Of a stretch of 64,000 bases of DNA, positions 34,752 to 40,981 are shown piece by piece. How positions within the stretch are numbered: position 1 is the stretch's first letter; every line of letters begins with the position of its first letter. The notes under the pieces were generated by a model. That model was given only the letters and a program-made list of their open reading frames with translations. It was not told the origin of the DNA and searched no databases. The translations under genes were made by a program, and so were the position numbers. The stretch is from a phage: the sequence record NC_129898.1. One strand, given 5' to 3'.

Positions 34752-35102
34752 TCAGTAGATGTTTTGTTTAATTTCTATTCCAAACTTTTTAAACGAGTCA
34801 GCAGCAAGCATGAATTTACGAGCCGCTGATGGGTTAGAAGTATGCACGAAAATCTTCACGTTGTCAACTACAGGAGGCTTACCAAATACAAATTTTTCCT
34901 CCAGTATGCAGAAGCAATCGTATCCTTCAAAAATTTCTCCCAAGTCGCTGTCAAAATGCCACTCAGAAACGCGTCTATATAGCTTTCCCTTGTCATTAAT
35001 GAAATCCATGAACTCAGAAGAACTCTTTAGCCAAAGAGCGTCTGGGAGCCCATAATTTGACGGATCTCTCAAATCATCTAGCCACACAATCAGCTTCTTC
35101 AT
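34752..35102 (-). CDS. hypothetical protein
   Basis: 116-aa ORF. Confidence 0.45.
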   Translation of the reverse strand: MKKLIVWLDDLRDPSNYGLPDALWLKSSSEFMDFINDKGKLYRRVSEWHFDSDLGEIFEGYDCFCILEEKFVFGKPPVVDNVKIFVHTSNPSAARKFMLAADSFKKFGIEIKQNIY

Positions 35103-36034
35103 TGCATATAGTCCTCGTTGTGGAAATAGCAGTCAAGTATCTCACGGCGTTCCTGCTCCAGGAGGCAATTCCACACATCTTCTGTGTAGTTTCTACGAAT
35201 GAAGTTTACCATGCCGTAAAACTCTTCGTCAACACGTTTAAAGATATCATCATCCCAAATCTTCCAAGCTCTACCCCTCATTACGACCTTCCGTGCCAGA
35301 TAGTAGGGAGACTTGATCTTTAGTTGCAGGTCATAAGGGTAGTAAGGCTTACGGATCATATACCCTTCGCCCCTTGTTTCTGCAGCCAACTCTTTTGCAT
35401 AGCTGAACGGAATTTCACGCACAGTGTGAGGACGTTTTGCACCAAGGTATTTGGCAATACCGTCTAAAGCTGCTTCTGGTAGCATTATTCCAGAATCATT
35501 GTATCGGCAACCGATCAAATAGGCACCATGATCTTCCTGAACAATATGCGGGTCTGAAGGGTGACAAATTTCAAACATGAATGTCATGTTTTCATGGCCC
35601 ATAACCTTCTTGATAAGATCTAAATTACCACATTGCTCCTGGATTGTTTCCTTTGCGAGGTTACAATATGGAGAATCAAGAGACCCTGTTGTTGAGAACA
35701 ACAGTTCACCTTTGTGAGATGATACCACACCAAGGAATCCGTTCTTTTTCTCTACCGCCGTCACAAGTTTATTGTCAGGCAGGTTGGTGGAATTTTCTCC
35801 CAAGTTAAACACTTTTGTGAAGGGCCATGCCACAACATTTCCTTCATTACCGACAACAATTCCTCGGCACTCTAGTAAACGCGGAGACAAATGCCATAGA
35901 TTGTTGTAAAATACTTTTCTGGCATATTTATAGATCTTTAACCCAAGATCTGGATAATACCGACTGGTTACAAGACCTTTATTCACTAAATCATCTGCAT
36001 TAAAATACTTCATCATACATTCCTCGTTTGTCAT
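35099..36034 (-). CDS. ligase-family nucleotidyltransferase, probable RNA ligase
   Basis: Motif I VEKKNGF (KxNG, no Arg at +5), motif IV EGYMIRK, motif V LKIKSP; 311 aa; a separate DNA ligase exists at 31342..32625. Confidence 0.55.
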   Translation of the reverse strand: MTNEECMMKYFNADDLVNKGLVTSRYYPDLGLKIYKYARKVFYNNLWHLSPRLLECRGIVVGNEGNVVAWPFTKVFNLGENSTNLPDNKLVTAVEKKNGFLGVVSSHKGELLFSTTGSLDSPYCNLAKETIQEQCGNLDLIKKVMGHENMTFMFEICHPSDPHIVQEDHGAYLIGCRYNDSGIMLPEAALDGIAKYLGAKRPHTVREIPFSYAKELAAETRGEGYMIRKPYYPYDLQLKIKSPYYLARKVVMRGRAWKIWDDDIFKRVDEEFYGMVNFIRRNYTEDVWNCLLEQERREILDCYFHNEDYMQ

Positions 36035-36077
36035 TTTGTCACTCTATCTTGCCACACAAATAAACTAGTGTCAACAC

Positions 36078-36106
36078 TTGAAATGAACAAAAGAGTTATG
36101 TATACT
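36078..36106 (+). promoter_or_regulatory. sigma70-like promoter for the plus-strand kinase operon
   Basis: TTGAAA (36078-36083), 17-nt spacer, TATACT (36101-36106); RBS GGAGG before ATG 36135. Confidence 0.55.
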
Positions 36107-36134
36107 ACCATTAAAATTAAAACGGAGGATTACT

Positions 36135-36545
36135 ATGTCTAAAATGCTATATATCGTGCGTGGTCTACCAGGTTCTGGCAAATCAACACTGGCAAATGCA
36201 CTATCTTTAGAGGGGCTGTACCCACATTTTGAGAACGACATGTTCTGGTACGACGACGATGGAAATTACAACTGGGATGCAAGTAAAGTAACACTTGCAG
36301 CAAAATGGTGCAAAGATAACGTAGAAGATATGATGCGTATGGGATACGACCGTGTCGTGGTAAGTAATACGTTTACAAAAGAAAAACATGTGCAAGAATA
36401 TGTTGACATGGCAATCAGTCATGGGTATAGTTATACTGTGATCGTGGTTGAAAACCGCCACGGTAATAAGAGCATTCATGATGTTCCAGATAGGGTTGTG
36501 GACCGTATGGAGCGTGAGCTTAAAAACTGCATTAAACTAAAATGA
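36135..36545 (+). CDS. P-loop kinase (polynucleotide-kinase-like)
   Basis: Walker A GLPGSGKST near the N-terminus; 136 aa; operonic with a metallophosphoesterase. Confidence 0.6.
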   Translation: MSKMLYIVRGLPGSGKSTLANALSLEGLYPHFENDMFWYDDDGNYNWDASKVTLAAKWCKDNVEDMMRMGYDRVVVSNTFTKEKHVQEYVDMAISHGYSYTVIVVENRHGNKSIHDVPDRVVDRMERELKNCIKLK

Positions 36546-36552
36546 GGGATGT

Positions 36553-37107
36553 ATGAAATATTTTGTAACAAGCGATACACACTTTCTCCACCAGCGAGTC
36601 ATGGAGTTTGATTCATGTCAAAAACACAGATCTCAGTATGATCACAATCTTGACAGTATGAACGAAGGAATCATTGCAGAGTGGAACTCTGTTGTATCAC
36701 CAGAAGACACTGTGTTTCACTTGGGCGATATTGCATGCACTAAGGATAAGAATATCAACAACTTATTTCCAGATATTCTAAATATGTTGAACGGACATAT
36801 TATTCTTGTTCGTGGTAACCATGACACAAGGACGACTGTCAGAATTATGAAAGAGTTCGGTAATGAGGTTGTAGATTATTACGAGCTTCGCCACAACAAG
36901 AATTTGATCTGTATGAGCCATTACCAGTTTGCAAAGTGGAACAGAAAGCCTCACGGATCAGTCCAACTGTTCGGTCATGCTCACGGAACCACACAGCAGT
37001 TGTTTGGCAGGCAGTTTGATGTCGGTTGGGATGTGTGGGGGAGACTCTTACCATTAGAAGAGGCATACCGTATTGCAATGAGTCTTGCTATTGACAGCGG
37101 GGAGTAA
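36553..37107 (+). CDS. calcineurin-like metallophosphoesterase
   Basis: SDTHF (DxH), LGDI (GD), GNHD, GHAHG motifs in order. Confidence 0.75.
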   Translation: MKYFVTSDTHFLHQRVMEFDSCQKHRSQYDHNLDSMNEGIIAEWNSVVSPEDTVFHLGDIACTKDKNINNLFPDILNMLNGHIILVRGNHDTRTTVRIMKEFGNEVVDYYELRHNKNLICMSHYQFAKWNRKPHGSVQLFGHAHGTTQQLFGRQFDVGWDVWGRLLPLEEAYRIAMSLAIDSGE

Positions 37108-37154
37108 TCCCTGCTATTTTAAAGAAAATTGCCACACAAGGAGAATCAGGAGAT

Positions 37155-37505
37155 ATGAAAGAGGAGGATAAGCTGCCATACCTTAAAGTCCCATTTGGAA
37201 TACTGTCTATGTCAAAAGTTTTGAATGATACAACTGGAGAGGTTGTTGTTCTTGACTTGTATGACAAGATCGTATACTGCTACCTGCACAACTGGTATAA
37301 GCTTGGAGGAAATTCACGCTTCACACCCAGCACAAGGAAAATTGCAGCAGATGTTGGGATAAAGAAAACAAAAGCAGCAGCGTGCGTTAAAACTTTAGAA
37401 TGTGCAGGAGTGGTTGAAATATCCACACAAGGGAGAGGTAAAAGATGCACATTTTCCAAAGTTTTGCCACCAGAAGAGGTTATTCGAATGTCAACAACTG
37501 GTTAG
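37155..37505 (+). CDS. helix-turn-helix DNA-binding protein candidate
   Basis: STRKIAADVGIKKTKAAACVKTLECAGVVE HTH-like segment; 116 aa; immediately upstream of the palindrome array. Confidence 0.45.
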   Translation: MKEEDKLPYLKVPFGILSMSKVLNDTTGEVVVLDLYDKIVYCYLHNWYKLGGNSRFTPSTRKIAADVGIKKTKAAACVKTLECAGVVEISTQGRGKRCTFSKVLPPEEVIRMSTTG

Positions 37506-37580
37506 ACCAGTAAAAACTTAAATATCTGTACTATAAGGATTCGTATGTTTTATGTCCATCCAAGAGCAGAGGGTAGTAAC

Positions 37581-37661
37581 TGTCCGTGATACGGACACTA
37601 CTGTCCGTCACGCGGACACATCTGCCCGTAATACGGACACTAACTGTCCGCAATACGGACA
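37581..37661. repeat. array of four 17-bp palindromic operator-like sites at ~21-bp pitch
   Basis: TGTCCGTGATACGGACA (37581-37597), TGTCCGTCACGCGGACA (37602-37618), TGCCCGTAATACGGACA (37623-37639), TGTCCGCAATACGGACA (37645-37661); half-sites TGTCCGT/ACGGACA. Confidence 0.7.
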
Positions 37662-37800
37662 CATAAAGAATATAACTAAAATAACTAAATAATAAAAAAA
37701 AATAAAAGATCTAGTAATTATGGTACTAAAGTACATATACTTAACTTATGTAGAATATACTAGATCCTAAGTACCATGTTTTAAATTTATTACTTACTAT

Positions 37801-38160
37801 TGGTAGTGTCGGCCCTTCATTGGCACTCGCCTACGAGGGGCGAGATGCCGGGCCTCCATAGTGCACACAATGACAGGAGTGCATACATGCAGGACTGTTA
37901 ACATGTGTGGGAGCGAAGCTATAGCGCAGGCCAAAGGCCGAGCACTAATGTGGACCACCGACGAAAGCTTGCCAGCGCCGTAAGGAGTCGGTTGAGAGCC
38001 TCCCGCGCGAGTTTAGTTAAAGTTTATGTGTGGAAACGGACAGGAAGGCCCCTAAATCGCCACACAGCTGCGTAAACTATACCAAGTAAGGCAATCGCAC
38101 CAGTTTGATAGAAAAGCTCGTTACAAAGCGATACAGTGAGTTTTTCTATAACTTGAAGAG
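37801..38160 (+). ncRNA. GC-rich ORF-free structured block (candidate non-coding RNA or leader)
   Basis: No ORF >=60 aa on either strand; nested helix GGCCC/GGGCC, GGCA/TGCC, CTCGCC/GGCGAG at 37811-37854. Confidence 0.25.
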
Positions 38161-38169
38161 GAGGCAGTT

Positions 38170-38748
38170 ATGAGTTCACGCAAAGATGACCGCGAAAAGA
38201 TTGCAAAACGTTATCAGAATGAAGAACAGATGGAGAAAACTTTCAAGTGGAAGCCAGGTTTCCAGCGTAATCATTCTAACGCTCGTGATCGTAAGCATCC
38301 GGATAAGTGGCTAACACCGCCAAATGATGGCATGCAGGTTGGTGATGAGAAGGAGCTATCGCCTGGAAAAGATGGCAACTACATTCGCACTAAGGACGCT
38401 GGTCCAAAGGATGACAGCTATCTTGTAGATAAGGTTCTTGATGGTATTGATGTAGATGTTGACACCACACGGAACTTTTTTCTTGGGTGGTATCGCACAG
38501 GTTTTTTCGACATCAAGGCCATTCGTCGTGTTTGTGATATTAAAAAGTCTGCATATGATGACGACTCGTTACATCGCACCCTGAGGCAATATTCAGAAAG
38601 ATATGGTCATCCGGTTATCACTCTTGACGATGTTGACGAAGTGATGTATCATGCAGAGGTTGTTGCAGGCAGATTTGGTGATGCATATCTTGATATCCTT
38701 TCTGCAAACGATGAGGTAATGTTGAATAAGATTTACTACGAACGTTGA
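38170..38748 (+). CDS. hypothetical protein
   Basis: 192 aa; GAGGAGG RBS upstream. Confidence 0.55.
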   Translation: MSSRKDDREKIAKRYQNEEQMEKTFKWKPGFQRNHSNARDRKHPDKWLTPPNDGMQVGDEKELSPGKDGNYIRTKDAGPKDDSYLVDKVLDGIDVDVDTTRNFFLGWYRTGFFDIKAIRRVCDIKKSAYDDDSLHRTLRQYSERYGHPVITLDDVDEVMYHAEVVAGRFGDAYLDILSANDEVMLNKIYYER

Positions 38749-38758
38749 GGAGAGCTTA

Positions 38759-38947
38759 ATGAACAATCCGGTAGCAAAGAACTGTAATAAGTTCAACAAG
38801 TCTGCAATTCACACTGACAGGAAAAAGAGCTGGTCACCGGACATTGACGAGGAGCTTGAGAATTACTTTGAAGATCTGGTTACCAATGCAGGTGAGGTTG
38901 CGATTAAAGAATACGCAGACAGGAGGGATAAGGCCGGAATCTGTTGA
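38759..38947 (+). CDS. hypothetical protein
   Basis: 62-aa ORF. Confidence 0.4.
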   Translation: MNNPVAKNCNKFNKSAIHTDRKKSWSPDIDEELENYFEDLVTNAGEVAIKEYADRRDKAGIC

Positions 38948-39023
38948 CAAAAATAATGTTACCTGATAAGATCTGCAATATGATGTGATACAATTTTAAC
39001 TTACGAGGTCTACAGGTAATGCT

Positions 39024-39266
39024 ATGTTTAAGGTTAAGCTCGTTTTCCGTTCCATGAATGAGGATTATTTAGAAGATGAAGGTGAATTTCGTGCACTAGA
39101 TGATGCAATAGATTTTGCCAACGACTTAGCTTGTATGAACACGGGTTATGGGTTGTGTTGTTGGGACGGTGGTATTCAGATCGGTGATAGCAAAATCTTC
39201 TACTTCTACCCTGAGCCGGATAACAAACAAATTAAGTATGTTTTATTTATTTGTGCTTTACAATGA
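39024..39266 (+). CDS. hypothetical protein
   Basis: 80-aa ORF. Confidence 0.45.
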   Translation: MFKVKLVFRSMNEDYLEDEGEFRALDDAIDFANDLACMNTGYGLCCWDGGIQIGDSKIFYFYPEPDNKQIKYVLFICALQ

Positions 39267-39553
39267 GGTTGTTTTCGTGTATCATGATGAATATCCAATT
39301 TAAAGATGAATTTGATGGCTTTATCTCCGGATGCTTTGAAACAGGGTTCGGAGAATGCTGAGTTCCCATTAGAGGGCTTGATAGTGCACCACACTTAAAA
39401 TGGTAGGGGCAGCCAGCACATGACGATGTGACCCCAGCCAACCTGTAATAAGGTCGAGCCAAAGCGCGGTAATGGGTCTCTGGTAACCCACTTGTTGGGT
39501 CTTGTGGTCCAGGACGCTGGGCAAGTCGCAGGGAATACCACCCTGCGGCGAAC

Positions 39554-40045: not shown

Positions 40046-40117
40046 GCCCTGTTAGCTTAGTGGATAAAGCAGCGGCCTTCTAAGCCGTTGACACTGGTTC
40101 GAGTCCAGTACGGGGTG
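40046..40117 (+). tRNA. tRNA-Arg (anticodon TCT)
   Basis: Acceptor GCCCTGT/ACGGGGT, D-stem GCTT/AAGC, anticodon loop CTTCTAA, T-loop TTCGAGT, CCA encoded. Confidence 0.8.
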
Positions 40118-40250
40118 CCAAGTTCTTTTTAATGTAGCTTACTTTAGCAGAGTAAATCTTCGGCAAGTGGCGGTAACCACTTTACCGATACCTCATAGTT
40201 AGTGGTGAGAACACTAGCTATTTTAAAAAGAATTTAAATATTAGTATTTA

Positions 40251-40335
40251 GGTGAGTTAATTCCGTAGGGGTAGCGGGGCAGACTGTAAATCTGTTATCA
40301 TTGCGATTCGGGTGGTTCGACTCCATCACTCACCA
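40251..40335 (+). tRNA. tRNA-Tyr (anticodon GTA), long variable arm
   Basis: Acceptor GGTGAGT/ACTCACC, anticodon loop CTGTAAA, T-loop TTCGACT, discriminator A, CCA encoded. Confidence 0.75.
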
Positions 40336-40452
40336 CCAAATTTATATTTTTAAATGCATAAATCATACAGATAATGGCATTGATATTTATCGTCGTTTAT
40401 ACTAGTCACTAACTGCTCGAAAATCAGTGTCATTATCAGTATTGTTTATAAA

Positions 40453-40540
40453 AGAGGGTAGGGAGCAATGGTGCTCAAGCGGTCTTGAAAACCGTCCCGT
40501 TGAGGATGACTCGATGATGGTTCGATTCCATTATCCTCTG
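40453..40540 (+). tRNA. tRNA-Ser (anticodon TGA), long variable arm
   Basis: Acceptor AGAGGGT/ATCCTCT, anticodon stem GCGGT/ACCGT with loop CTTGAAA, T-loop TTCGATT, discriminator G. Confidence 0.7.
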
Positions 40541-40640
40541 CCATATTGTTGACCTTGTAATTAAGCGAAAGCCGGAAGCAGAACCGGATTATCAAATGTT
40601 ACAGTCGTCATCGCCGACTAGCCACATGGTCAACATATTG

Positions 40641-40737
40641 CGCTAGGTAAGCCCTTTGGCAAGGGCGAGGATTTTTAATCCTGAAAATAGACGAGGTAGT
40701 CGTTGAATACATAGATGGTTCGATTCCATCACCTAGC
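40641..40737 (+). tRNA. atypical 97-nt tRNA-like element (anticodon loop TTTTTAA, possibly UUU)
   Basis: Perfect acceptor GCTAGGT/ACCTAGC, D-stem GCCC/GGGC, canonical T-arm GATGG-TTCGATT-CCATC, but ~30-nt variable region with ACGA-GGTAG-TCGT hairpin. Confidence 0.35.
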
Positions 40738-40743
40738 ACCTTT

Positions 40744-40816
40744 TGCTGATGTAGCACAATTGGCAGTGCAATTGATTTGTAATCAATAGGTTGCAGGTTC
40801 AAGTCCTGCCATCAGC
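40744..40816 (+). tRNA. tRNA-Thr (anticodon TGT)
   Basis: Acceptor GCTGATG/CATCAGC, D-stem GCAC/GTGC, anticodon stem ATTGA/TCAAT with loop TTTGTAA, T-loop TTCAAGT. Confidence 0.8.
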
Positions 40817-40820
40817 ACCA

Positions 40821-40892
40821 TGGCCCTGTAGCTGGAAGGTTCAAGCAAGCGACTCATAATCGCCAGACGGTGGTTCAATTCCACCCAGGGCC
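40821..40892 (+). tRNA. tRNA-Met or Ile2 (anticodon CAT), elongator-type
   Basis: Acceptor GGCCCTG/CAGGGCC with paired 1:72, anticodon loop CTCATAA, T-loop TTCAATT. Confidence 0.7.
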
Positions 40893-40907
40893 ACCAAATT
40901 ATAAATA

Positions 40908-40981
40908 CTCCGCGTAGCTCAGCTTGGTAGAGCGCCTGATTTGGGATCAGGAGGTCGAGTGTTCGAATCACTCCGTGGAGA
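40908..40981 (+). tRNA. tRNA-Pro (anticodon TGG)
   Basis: Acceptor CTCCGCG/CGTGGAG (C1:G72), D-arm GCTCAGCTTGGTAGAGC, anticodon stem CCTGA/TCAGG with loop TTTGGGA, T-loop TTCGAAT. Confidence 0.8.

What the first reader, a model, noticed from the sequence alone, without database searches (positions are those of the whole stretch)
37662..37800. AT-rich interval with tandem direct and inverted repeats (possible DNA unwinding element or promoter cluster)
Immediately after the palindrome array: tandem ATAACTAAA x2 (37672-37689), an A-tract (37693-37706), inverted repeat AGATCTAGTA / TACTAGATC (about 37708-37717 and 37768-37776) and palindrome GTACTAAAGTAC (37723-37734). Operator-like sites next to an AT-rich repeat-bearing stretch is the classic layout of a replication origin, though it could also be a regulated promoter region.
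Basis: partly seen in the sequence, partly recalled or inferred. Interest (0 to 1): 0.45.

Follow-up and report, generated by a model that had tools for sequence, protein, structure and literature searches.

The report
Candidate replication origin of rV5-like phage
The AT-rich stretch is most likely the easily melted half of this E. coli phage's replication origin, next to four binding-site repeats and the gene for a small protein related to a proven replication initiator; this is a familiar kind of origin, but none had been located in this phage group.

Summary
The window is a Vequintavirus (rV5/FV3-like E. coli myophage). The finding lies in a 664-bp gap between a 116-aa winged-helix gene and a 192-aa gene. 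The AT-rich interval is real: 81% A+T, and the least stable duplex in the window and in the rest of a 99.6%-identical genome (z about 6, next best about 3.9). Across 9-17 genomes it is as conserved as codon positions 1+2. To the left lie four 21-22-bp semi-palindromic iterons, found nowhere else in the genome, with copy number 3, 4 or 6 between isolates. The neighbouring protein matches, by sequence and by fold, the N-terminal domain of Vibrio PLE RepA (PDB 4RO3), an experimentally proven RepA_N initiator that binds iterons. Four other lineages keep the same trio of small wHTH gene, iterons and locally least stable AT block, with different iteron sequences and gene orientations. No credible sigma-70 promoter lies in the block. 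Best reading: the DNA-unwinding half of an iteron-type origin (confidence about 0.6, computational only). Rivals are a regulatory leader and a pac site. A conserved 350-nt GC-rich non-coding element lies to the right.

The parts
37091..37120 (+). Sigma-70-type promoter-like site (TTGACA-18-TATTTT, with TG before the -10) upstream of the wHTH gene. Transcription from it would run through the gene, the iterons and the AT block.
   Evidence: The homologous site is annotated as promoter P76 in the rV5 record. Its activity is predicted, not shown.
37155..37505 (+). Gene for a 116-aa winged-helix protein (rV5 gp075 type): a stand-alone homologue of the RepA_N-type initiator N-terminal, iteron-binding domain.
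37577..37662 (.). Array of four 21-22-bp iterons, each with the palindrome TGTCCG-N5-CGGACA (37581-97, 37602-18, 37623-39, 37645-61); the presumed binding sites of the wHTH protein.
   Evidence: There is no other copy in the window or in the remaining 72 kb of the genome, allowing 2 mismatches. Copy number is 3 (nomine), 4 (most) or 6 (typing phage 14).
37662..37800 (.). AT-rich block (the finding): candidate DNA-unwinding element. It contains ATAACTAAA x2 (37672-89), A9-T-A4 (37694-707), a match to the oriC 13-mer consensus GATCTTTTATTTT on the minus strand (37711-37699), GATC sites at 37708 and 37763, and the inverted pairs 37708-16/37758-66 and 37720-27/37770-77.
   Evidence: It aligns collinearly with the AT block next to the iterons of a distant relative, L146 (score 37; 1 of 500 shuffles reaches it).
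37805..38105 (+). Adjacent conserved GC-rich non-coding element, a candidate structured RNA. Whether it belongs to the origin is uncertain.
   Evidence: No Rfam match. The + strand MFE is -120.6 kcal/mol with z -2.6, against z -1.7 for the - strand. RNAalifold finds 94 pairs, no compensatory change and several G-U-compatible one-sided changes. 23% of columns vary.

Best explanation
The interval is the easily melted, AT-rich half of the phage's replication origin.

Proposed mechanism:
1. The early sigma-70-type promoter at 37091-37120 expresses the 116-aa winged-helix protein.
2. Dimers of this protein, a stand-alone version of the DNA-binding N-terminal domain of RepA_N-type initiators, occupy the four semi-palindromic iterons at 37577-37662. 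These are spaced two helical turns apart, so the dimers sit on one face of the DNA.
3. The resulting nucleoprotein array stresses the adjoining 140 bp, which is the least stable duplex in the genome and contains phased A-tracts and a GATCT-plus-T-run 13-mer like those of oriC. Read-through transcription may help.
4. The block opens, and the phage's own replisome loads there: a T7-like helicase-primase, a PolA-type polymerase and an SF1B/RecD-like helicase.
5. Forks leave in both directions, co-oriented with the two divergent transcription blocks that meet about 1.6 kb to the left.

Shown here: the anatomy, the uniqueness in the genome, the duplex instability, the conservation, the homology of the protein to a proven initiator domain, and the conservation of the three-part module in other lineages.

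Inferred, not shown: binding of the protein to the iterons, unwinding of the block, replisome loading, and the use of this site as the origin.
For: 1. It is the least stable duplex in the window: -1.004 kcal/mol per step over 100 bp, z 5.7-6.1. The same holds for the remaining 72 kb of a 99.6%-identical genome, where the next best site is -1.117.
2. It directly abuts four 21-22-bp iterons with the palindromic core TGTCCG-N5-CGGACA. These occur nowhere else in the genome. Copy number is 3, 4 or 6 between isolates, as is typical of iteron arrays.
4. 4RO3 is the N-terminal domain of V. cholerae PLE RepA. That protein was shown by deletion, complementation and EMSA to be the initiator that binds semi-palindromic iterons at the PLE origin. 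It depends on the helper phage's T7-like replisome and an SF1B helicase (PMC7145576).
5. rV5-like phages encode the same kinds of replisome parts (annotations).
6. The module is conserved. In Mydovirus, Seunavirus, Henunavirus and two metagenomic contigs, the small wHTH homologue always sits next to 2-4 iterons of 22-23 bp with a palindromic core, and next to the locally least stable AT block. The iteron sequences differ, and the gene has different orientations relative to the iterons and AT block.
7. The AT block of L146, whose protein is only about 30% identical, aligns collinearly with the window's block (1 of 500 shuffles reaches the score).
8. Purifying selection is evident: 9.8% variable columns, against 26-31% at third codon positions and 31-73% in the flanking linkers.
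9. The oriC 13-mer consensus GATCTnTTnTTTT has its only match in the 64 kb here, against 0.09 expected.
10. The minimum of cumulative GC skew and the divergence of transcription lie 1.6 kb away.
11. No credible promoter lies in the block, and rV5's published promoter list has none here.
Against: - There is no direct evidence of initiation: no marker-frequency data, origin mapping or binding data exist for this genus in the literature I could search.
- The protein is only 116 aa. It lacks the C-terminal domain that RepA_N initiators are thought to use for recruiting host or phage factors.
- Its Pfam DUF6945 score is just under the curated cutoff (27.1 against 28), and it does not hit Pfam RepA_N itself.
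- In the sister genera the iterons lie between a conserved promoter and the wHTH start codon. That is also the classic layout of an autorepressor.
- The strong sequence conservation of the block is more than a plain unwinding element would need.
- GC skew follows the direction of transcription here and cannot locate the origin (PMC3606486).
- AGATCT/GATC is common in this genome, so it carries no weight by itself. The 13-mer match was noticed after the fact.
- The genome holds another 1.7-kb non-coding, repeat-bearing region that could be an origin.
Confidence: 0.6

Rival explanations
1. It is a transcriptional control region. The wHTH protein would be an ordinary repressor or activator. The four palindromes would be its operators, or a roadblock to read-through from the upstream promoter. 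The AT block would be a leader, an UP-like element or a non-canonical promoter. That promoter would control the GC-rich RNA, the 192-aa gene and the tRNA and late genes downstream.
For: - GenBank records often call the protein 'putative transcriptional regulator'.
- In Mydo-, Seuna- and Henunavirus the two iterons lie between a conserved TTGACA-17-GATAAT promoter and the wHTH start codon, which is an autorepressor-like layout.
- The AT block is conserved in sequence, not merely in composition.
- It lies at the head of a long rightward gene block that leads to tRNAs, lysis genes and terminase.
Against: - No credible sigma-70 promoter lies in or just after the block. The best + strand score is 6.4. 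The strongest sites in the window score up to 15.6, and rV5's listed promoters are near-consensus.
- The palindrome and the block's 12-mers occur nowhere else in the genome, so there is no regulon or promoter class.
- In this genus the sites lie downstream of the regulator gene, and the gene's own promoter carries none.
- The position of the AT block relative to the gene differs between lineages, while its adjacency to the iterons is constant.
- The closest characterised homologue is an initiator, not a regulator.
- The two readings are not mutually exclusive, because initiators often autoregulate.
Confidence: 0.22
2. It is a packaging-initiation (pac) site. The repeats would be recognition sites for a small-terminase-like DNA-binding protein, and the AT block would be the bent or cut region where headful packaging series begin.
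For: - Vequintaviruses are reported as headful-packaged and circularly permuted, in one report only partially permuted, so a pac site should exist somewhere (PMC8407724 and PMC13211470).
- Repeated protein-binding sites next to bendable AT-rich DNA, about 3 kb upstream of the large terminase gene, resemble cosB/pac layouts. This resemblance rests on my background knowledge.
Against: - The adjacent protein is a homologue of the RepA_N/DnaD N-terminal domain, not of a small terminase.
- Six tRNA matches, several ORFs and the spanin genes separate the site from terL.
- In the sister genera the same module sits next to PRPP synthetase and NAMPT genes, far from the packaging genes.
- No record shows ends mapped here. 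The one GenBank record that starts at the iterons (H60) comes from a set with arbitrary start points.
Confidence: 0.06
3. The block has no DNA-level function of its own. It would be either the 5' part or leader of a longer RNA that includes the GC-rich element, or merely a conserved spacer.
For: - It lies between two constrained elements and is probably transcribed from the upstream promoter, since no terminator-like site was found.
- The GC-rich element to the right folds better than shuffles on the + strand, with z -2.6.
Against: - A variable linker at 37796-37806 (73-82% variable columns) separates the AT block from the GC-rich element, so they behave as separate units.
- The GC-rich element and the 192-aa gene are confined to this genus, whereas the pairing of AT block and iterons is conserved in other lineages that lack them.
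- The block itself has no unusual fold, with z -0.08 for DNA.
- A neutral spacer would not be conserved as strongly as first and second codon positions.
Confidence: 0.08

Closest known systems
Origin and RepA initiator of the Vibrio cholerae phage satellite PLE (RepA_N family; N-terminal domain structure PDB 4RO3; Barth et al., NAR 2020, PMC7145576)
   Same: - The window's 116-aa protein is a detectable sequence and fold homologue of the PLE RepA N-terminal domain.
- Both lie next to a non-coding region with semi-palindromic direct repeats.
- Both are associated with a phage replisome of the T7 type plus an SF1B helicase.
   Different: - PLE RepA has a C-terminal domain, while the window's protein is the N-terminal domain alone.
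- PLE is a satellite that borrows a helper phage's replisome, whereas this is a 136-kb lytic phage with its own replisome.
- The iteron sequences are unrelated.
- Function is shown experimentally for PLE and only inferred here.
Staphylococcal multiresistance plasmid RepA_N initiators and their iterons (pSK41 and pTZ2162; PDB 4PQL, 4PT7, 4PTA, 5KBJ)
   Same: - Iterons that are direct repeats containing inverted sub-repeats around an A/T-rich centre (PMC7145576).
   Different: - There is no significant sequence match to Pfam RepA_N.
- According to my background knowledge, the plasmid origins lie inside the rep gene, and the initiators carry host-specific C-terminal domains.
Bacteriophage lambda ori with O protein (my background knowledge, not tested here)
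   Same: - Four roughly 19-21-bp iterons, each with internal dyad symmetry, spaced about two helical turns apart.
- They are followed directly by an AT-rich region that is unwound.
- Initiation is helped by transcription through or near the origin.
   Different: - Lambda ori lies inside the O gene.
- O has a C-terminal domain that recruits P-DnaB.
- No sequence match to O-family profiles beyond weak PHROG links through the sister-genus protein.
- Two actinophage contigs with the very same TGTCCG-N5-CGGACA palindrome array inside O-like genes show no protein similarity to the window's protein.
E. coli oriC AT-rich 13-mer region (my background knowledge)
   Same: - One exact match to the 13-mer consensus GATCTnTTnTTTT lies in the block. 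It is the only match in the 64 kb.
- GATC sites lie within the AT-rich DNA.
- Similar GATCT-plus-T-run elements occur in the sister genera's AT blocks.
   Different: - No DnaA R-boxes lie within reach; the nearest TTATNCACA is kilobases away.
- There is a single 13-mer, not three.
- AGATCT is common in this genome.

Membership tests
Iteron-type theta replication origin (iterons + AT-rich DUE + cognate initiator gene) | Array of at least 3 directly repeated initiator-binding sites of about 17-22 bp at helical-repeat spacing | tested here: met
   Four copies at spacings of 21, 21 and 22 bp, 77-100% identical to each other. Copy number is 3, 4 or 6 in related genomes.
Iteron-type theta replication origin (iterons + AT-rich DUE + cognate initiator gene) | Adjacent AT-rich region of low helical stability | tested here: met
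   81% A+T. It is the global minimum of nearest-neighbour stability in the window and in the rest of the genome, with z about 6. Only a nearest-neighbour model was used, not a superhelical-stress (SIDD) calculation.
Iteron-type theta replication origin (iterons + AT-rich DUE + cognate initiator gene) | A cognate initiator protein encoded nearby that binds the iterons | tested here: inconclusive
   The adjacent gene encodes a homologue of the iteron-binding N-terminal domain of a proven initiator. Iteron sequence co-varies with the protein between lineages. Binding itself cannot be tested here.
Iteron-type theta replication origin (iterons + AT-rich DUE + cognate initiator gene) | Replication actually starts here | not testable with these tools
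   This needs marker-frequency sequencing, 2D gels or a cloned-origin assay. No such data were found in the library.
RepA_N family of initiators (protein partner) | Significant match to the Pfam RepA_N model (PF06970) | tested here: not met
   No RepA_N hit at E up to 0.1. PLE RepA, which its authors accept as RepA_N on structural grounds, also lacks BLASTP-level similarity to the family.
RepA_N family of initiators (protein partner) | Fold of the RepA_N/DnaD-type N-terminal domain (winged helix with an N-terminal helix/beta extension) | tested here: met
   [not shown]
RepA_N family of initiators (protein partner) | Two-domain architecture: DNA-binding N-terminal domain plus a lineage-specific C-terminal domain | tested here: not met
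   The protein is 116 aa and ends about 15 residues after the wing. The sister-genus homologues are 105-114 aa. Longer relatives with C-terminal extensions do exist (P0012 at 217 aa, P0011 at 228 aa).
Pfam DUF6945 (the family that most members of the protein alignment match) | Score at or above the curated gathering threshold | tested here: inconclusive
   27.1 bits against a cutoff of 28 for the window's protein. 13 of 14 aligned relatives match DUF6945 at E up to 0.01, with a best E of 1.1e-7.
Sigma-70 promoter cluster | -35/-10 hexamers with 16-18-bp spacing, comparable to the phage's known promoters | tested here: not met
   The consensus scan finds none on the + strand in 37560-38170. The best PWM score in the block is 6.4 on the + strand and about 8 on the - strand, against a window maximum of 15.6. 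rV5's published list has no promoter here.
oriC-type DnaA-dependent origin | Cluster of DnaA boxes (TTATNCACA) next to the AT-rich 13-mers | tested here: not met
   Five boxes in 64 kb against 3.2 expected, none within kilobases of the block. There is one 13-mer consensus match.

The most novel reading that the evidence does not exclude
Vequintavirinae may start replication with a minimal initiator: a stand-alone RepA_N-type DNA-binding domain with no recruitment domain. Bound to two-to-six iterons, it would merely restructure an adjacent sequence-specific unwinding element. The phage's SF1B helicase and T7-like helicase-primase would then load themselves, which is the 'back-door' model proposed but untested for PLE. 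In the rV5 genus the origin may also have acquired a neighbouring conserved structured RNA of about 350 nt. That RNA could take part in initiation, as a primer or R-loop, or in controlling it.
Probability: 0.15. Interest if true: 0.65.

Novelty: new member of a known kind. Interest (0 to 1): 0.4.

Why it matters
rV5-like phages are widely isolated and used in E. coli O157 biocontrol and phage-therapy cocktails, yet their replication origin has not been located. The original rV5 genome paper tried GC and AT skew and found only switches in transcription direction.

A concrete candidate of about 230 bp, with a named binding protein, makes the question directly testable. It would also help in building replicons or engineered phages.

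The result also extends the RepA_N/PLE-RepA type of initiator domain, described as rare in Gram-negative systems, to a whole subfamily of large lytic coliphages, in a truncated form. That bears on the open question of how RepA_N proteins actually trigger initiation.

Tried and rejected
**RNA families.** Rfam at gathering threshold over the whole window, and at E up to 10 over 37450-38250, returned only tRNAs and chance hits.

**Promoters and terminators.**
- The sigma-70 consensus scan and my own PWM scan found nothing credible in the block.
- A good minus-strand site at 37558-37530 is not conserved, because its -35 changes in most genomes.
- No intrinsic terminator-like site was found in 35800-39400.

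**Origin motifs.**
- DnaA boxes: none nearby.
- AGATCT/GATC enrichment: rejected, because AGATCT occurs 40 times in 64 kb.

**Hairpin or cruciform potential of the block as ssDNA:** ordinary, z = -0.08.

**Recurrence of the block's 12-mers elsewhere in the genome as a promoter class:** none.

**A protein-coding reading of the ORF through the iterons (37552-37692, 46 aa).** Rejected for three reasons:
- its start lies in the most variable linker;
- the 22-bp fourth spacing breaks the 7-codon repeat;
- iteron copy number varies.

**Homologues of the wHTH protein.**
- The word-based search and tblastn found only the genus itself.
- The exhaustive HMMER search gave a few weak relatives.
- IMG/VR held no relatives.

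**Wasted or uninformative scans.**
- An IMG/VR scan with the low-complexity pattern ATAACTAAAATAACTAAA returned only unrelated AT-rich noise.
- A scan with an RNA-element pattern found nothing.

**Structure prediction.** The single-sequence AF2 model was unusable at pLDDT 38. The alignment-based model worked.

**Comparison of AT blocks.** Aligning the window's block to the Mydovirus block gave a score only about 2.8 sd above shuffles, which I treat as not significant.

**Actinophage contigs with the identical palindrome inside O-like initiator genes.** There is no protein similarity, so this is an analogy only.

**The 192-aa downstream protein.** No Pfam, NCBIfam or PDB match.

**Literature.** No origin mapping, iteron description or transcriptome for the genus was found.

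Full report
**Context.** The window is part of a Vequintavirus genome, an rV5/FV3-like E. coli myophage. Positions 36000-39000 are 99.6% identical to Escherichia phage EPFV3-03/2025 and 98.2% to FV3. 119 GenBank phage records match at 80-99%.

The finding lies inside a 664-bp gap (37506-38169). On its left is a 116-aa gene (37155-37505, + strand), annotated either 'replication initiation protein' or 'putative transcriptional regulator'. On its right is a 192-aa gene of unknown function (38170-38748). About 1.6 kb to the left, the two large transcription blocks of the genome diverge and the GC skew changes sign. The rV5 genome paper noted such skew switches and concluded that they follow the direction of transcription, so the origin was left undefined (PMC3606486).

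**The observation.**
- The tandem ATAACTAAA x2 (37672-37689) and the A-tract (A9-T-A4, 37694-37707) are as described.
- The inverted repeat is GATCTAGTA (37708-16) with TACTAGATC at 37758-66.
- The 'palindrome' GTACTAAAGTAC (37723-34) is only GTAC-N4-GTAC, and its length is polymorphic.
- Each of these repeats is within chance for a sequence of this composition. Among dinucleotide shuffles, an inverted repeat of at least 9 nt occurs in 18%, two of at least 8 nt in 19%, and a tandem 9-mer in 11.5%.
- The strand has no unusual hairpin potential, with z = -0.08.

The interval as a whole is what stands out. It is 81% A+T and is the least stable duplex in the 64-kb window (-1.004 kcal/mol per step over 100 bp, z about 5.7-6.1). 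I fetched the other 72 kb of the 99.6%-identical genome. Nothing there comes close either, the next best site being -1.117.

**Anatomy of the gap.** A 17-genome alignment divides the gap into blocks.

| Block | Coordinates | Variable columns (9-genome / 17-genome alignment) |
|---|---|---|
| Variable linker | 37506-37576 | 31% / 34% |
| Four iterons | 37577-37662 | variation mostly from copy-number gaps |
| AT block | 37663-37795 | 9.8% / 13.5% |
| Second variable linker | 37796-37806 | 73% / 82% |
| GC-rich conserved block | 37807-38105 | 23% / 27% |
| Conserved hairpin and the RBS of the next gene | 38106-38169 | 9.4% / 12.5% |

For comparison, codon positions 1+2 of the flanking genes vary at 8% of columns and position 3 at 26-31%. 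The AT block is therefore under purifying selection on its sequence, not merely on its composition.

The iterons are 21-22 bp apart, and each contains the palindrome TGTCCG-N5-CGGACA. That palindrome occurs nowhere else in the genome, even allowing two mismatches. Copy number is 3 in phage nomine, 4 in most genomes and 6 in O157 typing phage 14.

**Promoter test.**
- The consensus scan finds no sigma-70-like site on the + strand between 37560 and 38170.
- My PWM scan gives at most 6.4 on the + strand in the block and about 8 on the - strand. The window maximum is 15.6.
- The published rV5 promoter list, made of near-consensus TTGACA promoters, has none here.
- None of the block's 12-mers recurs elsewhere in the genome, so it does not belong to a phage-specific promoter class.
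- A promoter-like site does precede the 116-aa gene (37091-37120, annotated P76 in rV5). No terminator-like site was found, so the iterons and the AT block are probably transcribed from it.

**The protein partner.**
- Sequence searches show the 116-aa protein is confined to the genus at BLAST level. An exhaustive HMMER search found only a few weak relatives.
- It matches PHROG 12838 ('replication initiation protein') and, more weakly, PHROG 8102. It falls just under the Pfam thresholds for DUF6945 (27.1 against 28 bits) and HTH_36.
- Against the PDB, the only significant sequence match is 4RO3, at E 1.8e-6. A profile of the family gives E 3e-6.
- An AlphaFold model built on an alignment of 14 relatives reached pLDDT 80. 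It shows a winged helix preceded by a short helix and a beta-hairpin.
- The library paper that cites 4RO3 identifies it as the N-terminal domain of RepA of the V. cholerae phage satellite PLE. That paper shows by deletion, complementation, a minimal replicon and EMSA that RepA is the initiator. It binds a semi-palindromic iteron in the PLE origin. PLE replication also needs the helper phage's T7-like replisome and an SF1B helicase (PMC7145576).
- rV5-like phages encode a PolA-type polymerase, a DnaB/primase-type helicase and a RecD/PIF1-type helicase (annotations).
- The window's protein is therefore a stand-alone homologue of a proven iteron-binding initiator domain. It lacks any C-terminal domain.

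**Comparative evidence.**
- A distant homologue of 105-114 aa, also annotated 'replication initiation protein', is conserved in other Vequintavirinae genera: Mydovirus, Seunavirus and Henunavirus.
- In all three genera, the region beside the gene holds two 23-bp-spaced repeats with the palindromic core TCAATTTGA(G). These are immediately flanked by a conserved AT-rich block with a T-tract and GATCT-plus-T-run elements. A conserved TTGACA-17-GATAAT promoter lies about 190 bp upstream, so the block and the repeats sit in a transcribed leader.
- A metagenomic contig, L146, encodes the closest non-genus homologue (P0014, about 30% identical). It has three 23-bp repeats of yet another sequence, then an AT block, then a fourth repeat. 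That AT block aligns collinearly with the window's block, starting right after the iterons; only 1 of 500 dinucleotide shuffles reaches the score.
- In every one of these loci, the least stable 100 bp is the AT block beside the iterons.
- The order is gene, iterons, AT block in the window; AT block, iterons, gene in the sister genera; and iterons, AT block, iteron, gene in L146.
- Adjacency of iterons and AT block is thus constant. The iteron sequence changes with the protein, and the position relative to the gene's transcription is free. This fits a self-contained origin module better than it fits an operator-promoter pair.

**Weaker observations.**
- The block holds the only exact match in the 64 kb to the oriC 13-mer consensus GATCTnTTnTTTT (minus strand 37711-37699; 0.09 expected). 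I noticed this after the fact.
- No DnaA boxes lie nearby.
- AGATCT is too common in this genome to count as evidence.
- Two actinophage contigs carry arrays of the very same TGTCCG-N5-CGGACA palindrome inside O-like initiator genes, in the lambda arrangement. Their proteins show no similarity to the window's protein, so this is only an analogy.

**Conclusion.** The most likely reading is that 37662-37800 is the unwinding half of an iteron-type origin whose other half is 37577-37662. The 116-aa RepA_N-type domain would act as the iteron binder. I put this at about 0.6, because every step from binding onward is inferred.

**Rivals.**
- The main rival (about 0.22) is a transcriptional control region. 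The sister-genus layout also fits an autorepressor, the protein is small, and the sequence conservation exceeds what simple melting needs. The two roles can coexist.
- A pac site (about 0.06) is conceivable, since the genus packages by headful. However, the protein is not terminase-like, and in the sister genera the module is far from the packaging genes.
- A role only as part of a longer RNA (about 0.08) is disfavoured by the variable linker that separates the block from the GC-rich element. It is also disfavoured because the GC-rich element is confined to this genus.

**The GC-rich neighbour.** The element at 37805-38105 is conserved and non-coding. Single-base indels in several genomes break the annotated small ORFs. 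It folds better than shuffles on the + strand (z -2.6, against -1.7 on the - strand). It has no Rfam match. With 17 sequences at 90% mean identity there are no compensatory changes, only several one-sided G-U-compatible ones. It remains an untested candidate structured RNA.

**Novelty.** This is a familiar kind of origin architecture, so the finding is a new member of a known kind. Two points make it worth a bench test. No origin has been described for this widely used phage group. And the putative initiator is a truncated, DNA-binding-only form of a family whose initiation mechanism is still open.

Noticed in passing
window 37805-38105 (+): A conserved GC-rich non-coding element of about 300-350 nt with several GC-rich stem-loops. 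It has no Rfam match. The + strand folds with z -2.6. Among 17 genomes there are only G-U-compatible one-sided changes and no compensatory pairs. The small ORFs annotated here in some records are broken by single-base indels in others. It is a candidate novel structured RNA, confined to the genus.
   Followed up: partly
window 38108-38149 (+): A nearly invariant 12-bp stem with an 18-nt loop (ATAGAAAAGCTC...GAGTTTTTCTAT) lies immediately upstream of the Shine-Dalgarno sequence of the 192-aa gene. It may be a translational or processing signal.
   Followed up: no
window 37577-37662 and loci L004, L006: Iteron copy number is polymorphic between isolates: 3 in phage nomine, 4 in most genomes and 6 in O157 typing phage 14. 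Some GenBank records annotate the array only as 'repeat_region' or as a small hypothetical ORF.
   Followed up: yes
L010 31627-33373 (PV435126 72126-73872; outside the window): A second non-coding region of 1.7 kb in the same genome, probably the 'non-coding' box of the rV5 paper. It has a perfect 18-nt inverted repeat 116 nt apart, a perfect 15-nt inverted repeat and several direct repeats. It has no Rfam match. It is an alternative candidate for an origin or a pac site.
   Followed up: partly
L013 4900-5040 and L014 3470-3600 (IMG/VR high-GC viral contigs): Arrays of 5-6 copies of the same palindrome, TGTCCG-N5-CGGACA, lie inside genes whose N-termini are HTH domains. One of these genes matches PHROG 'replication initiation O-like'. 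This is the lambda-style arrangement of an origin inside the initiator gene. There is no protein similarity to the window's wHTH protein.
   Followed up: partly
window 35099-37107: An RNA-repair-like gene set sits directly left of the wHTH gene. It comprises RNA ligase 1 (35099-36034, - strand), a P-loop kinase of the polynucleotide-kinase type (36135-36545) and a metallophosphoesterase (36553-37107). Rfam finds six tRNA matches at 40046-40981, to the right.
   Followed up: no
search results: Eighteen GenBank records named 'Campylobacter phage' (host C. jejuni) are 93-95% identical to E. coli Vequintavirus across this locus. They may be mislabelled or derived from contaminating coliphage.
   Followed up: no
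L146 251-1075 (metagenomic contig carrying the wHTH homologue P0014): The gene divergent from the wHTH/iteron/AT module carries precomputed Pfam hits to TROVE (the Ro60-type RNA-binding module) and to NAPRTase. In the sister genera the same neighbourhood holds PRPP synthetase and NAMPT genes.
   Followed up: no
window 37558-37530 (-): A good sigma-70-like site (TGGACA-17-TATAGT) points leftward into the 3' end of the wHTH gene. Its -35 is altered in most other genomes, so it is probably fortuitous.
   Followed up: yes
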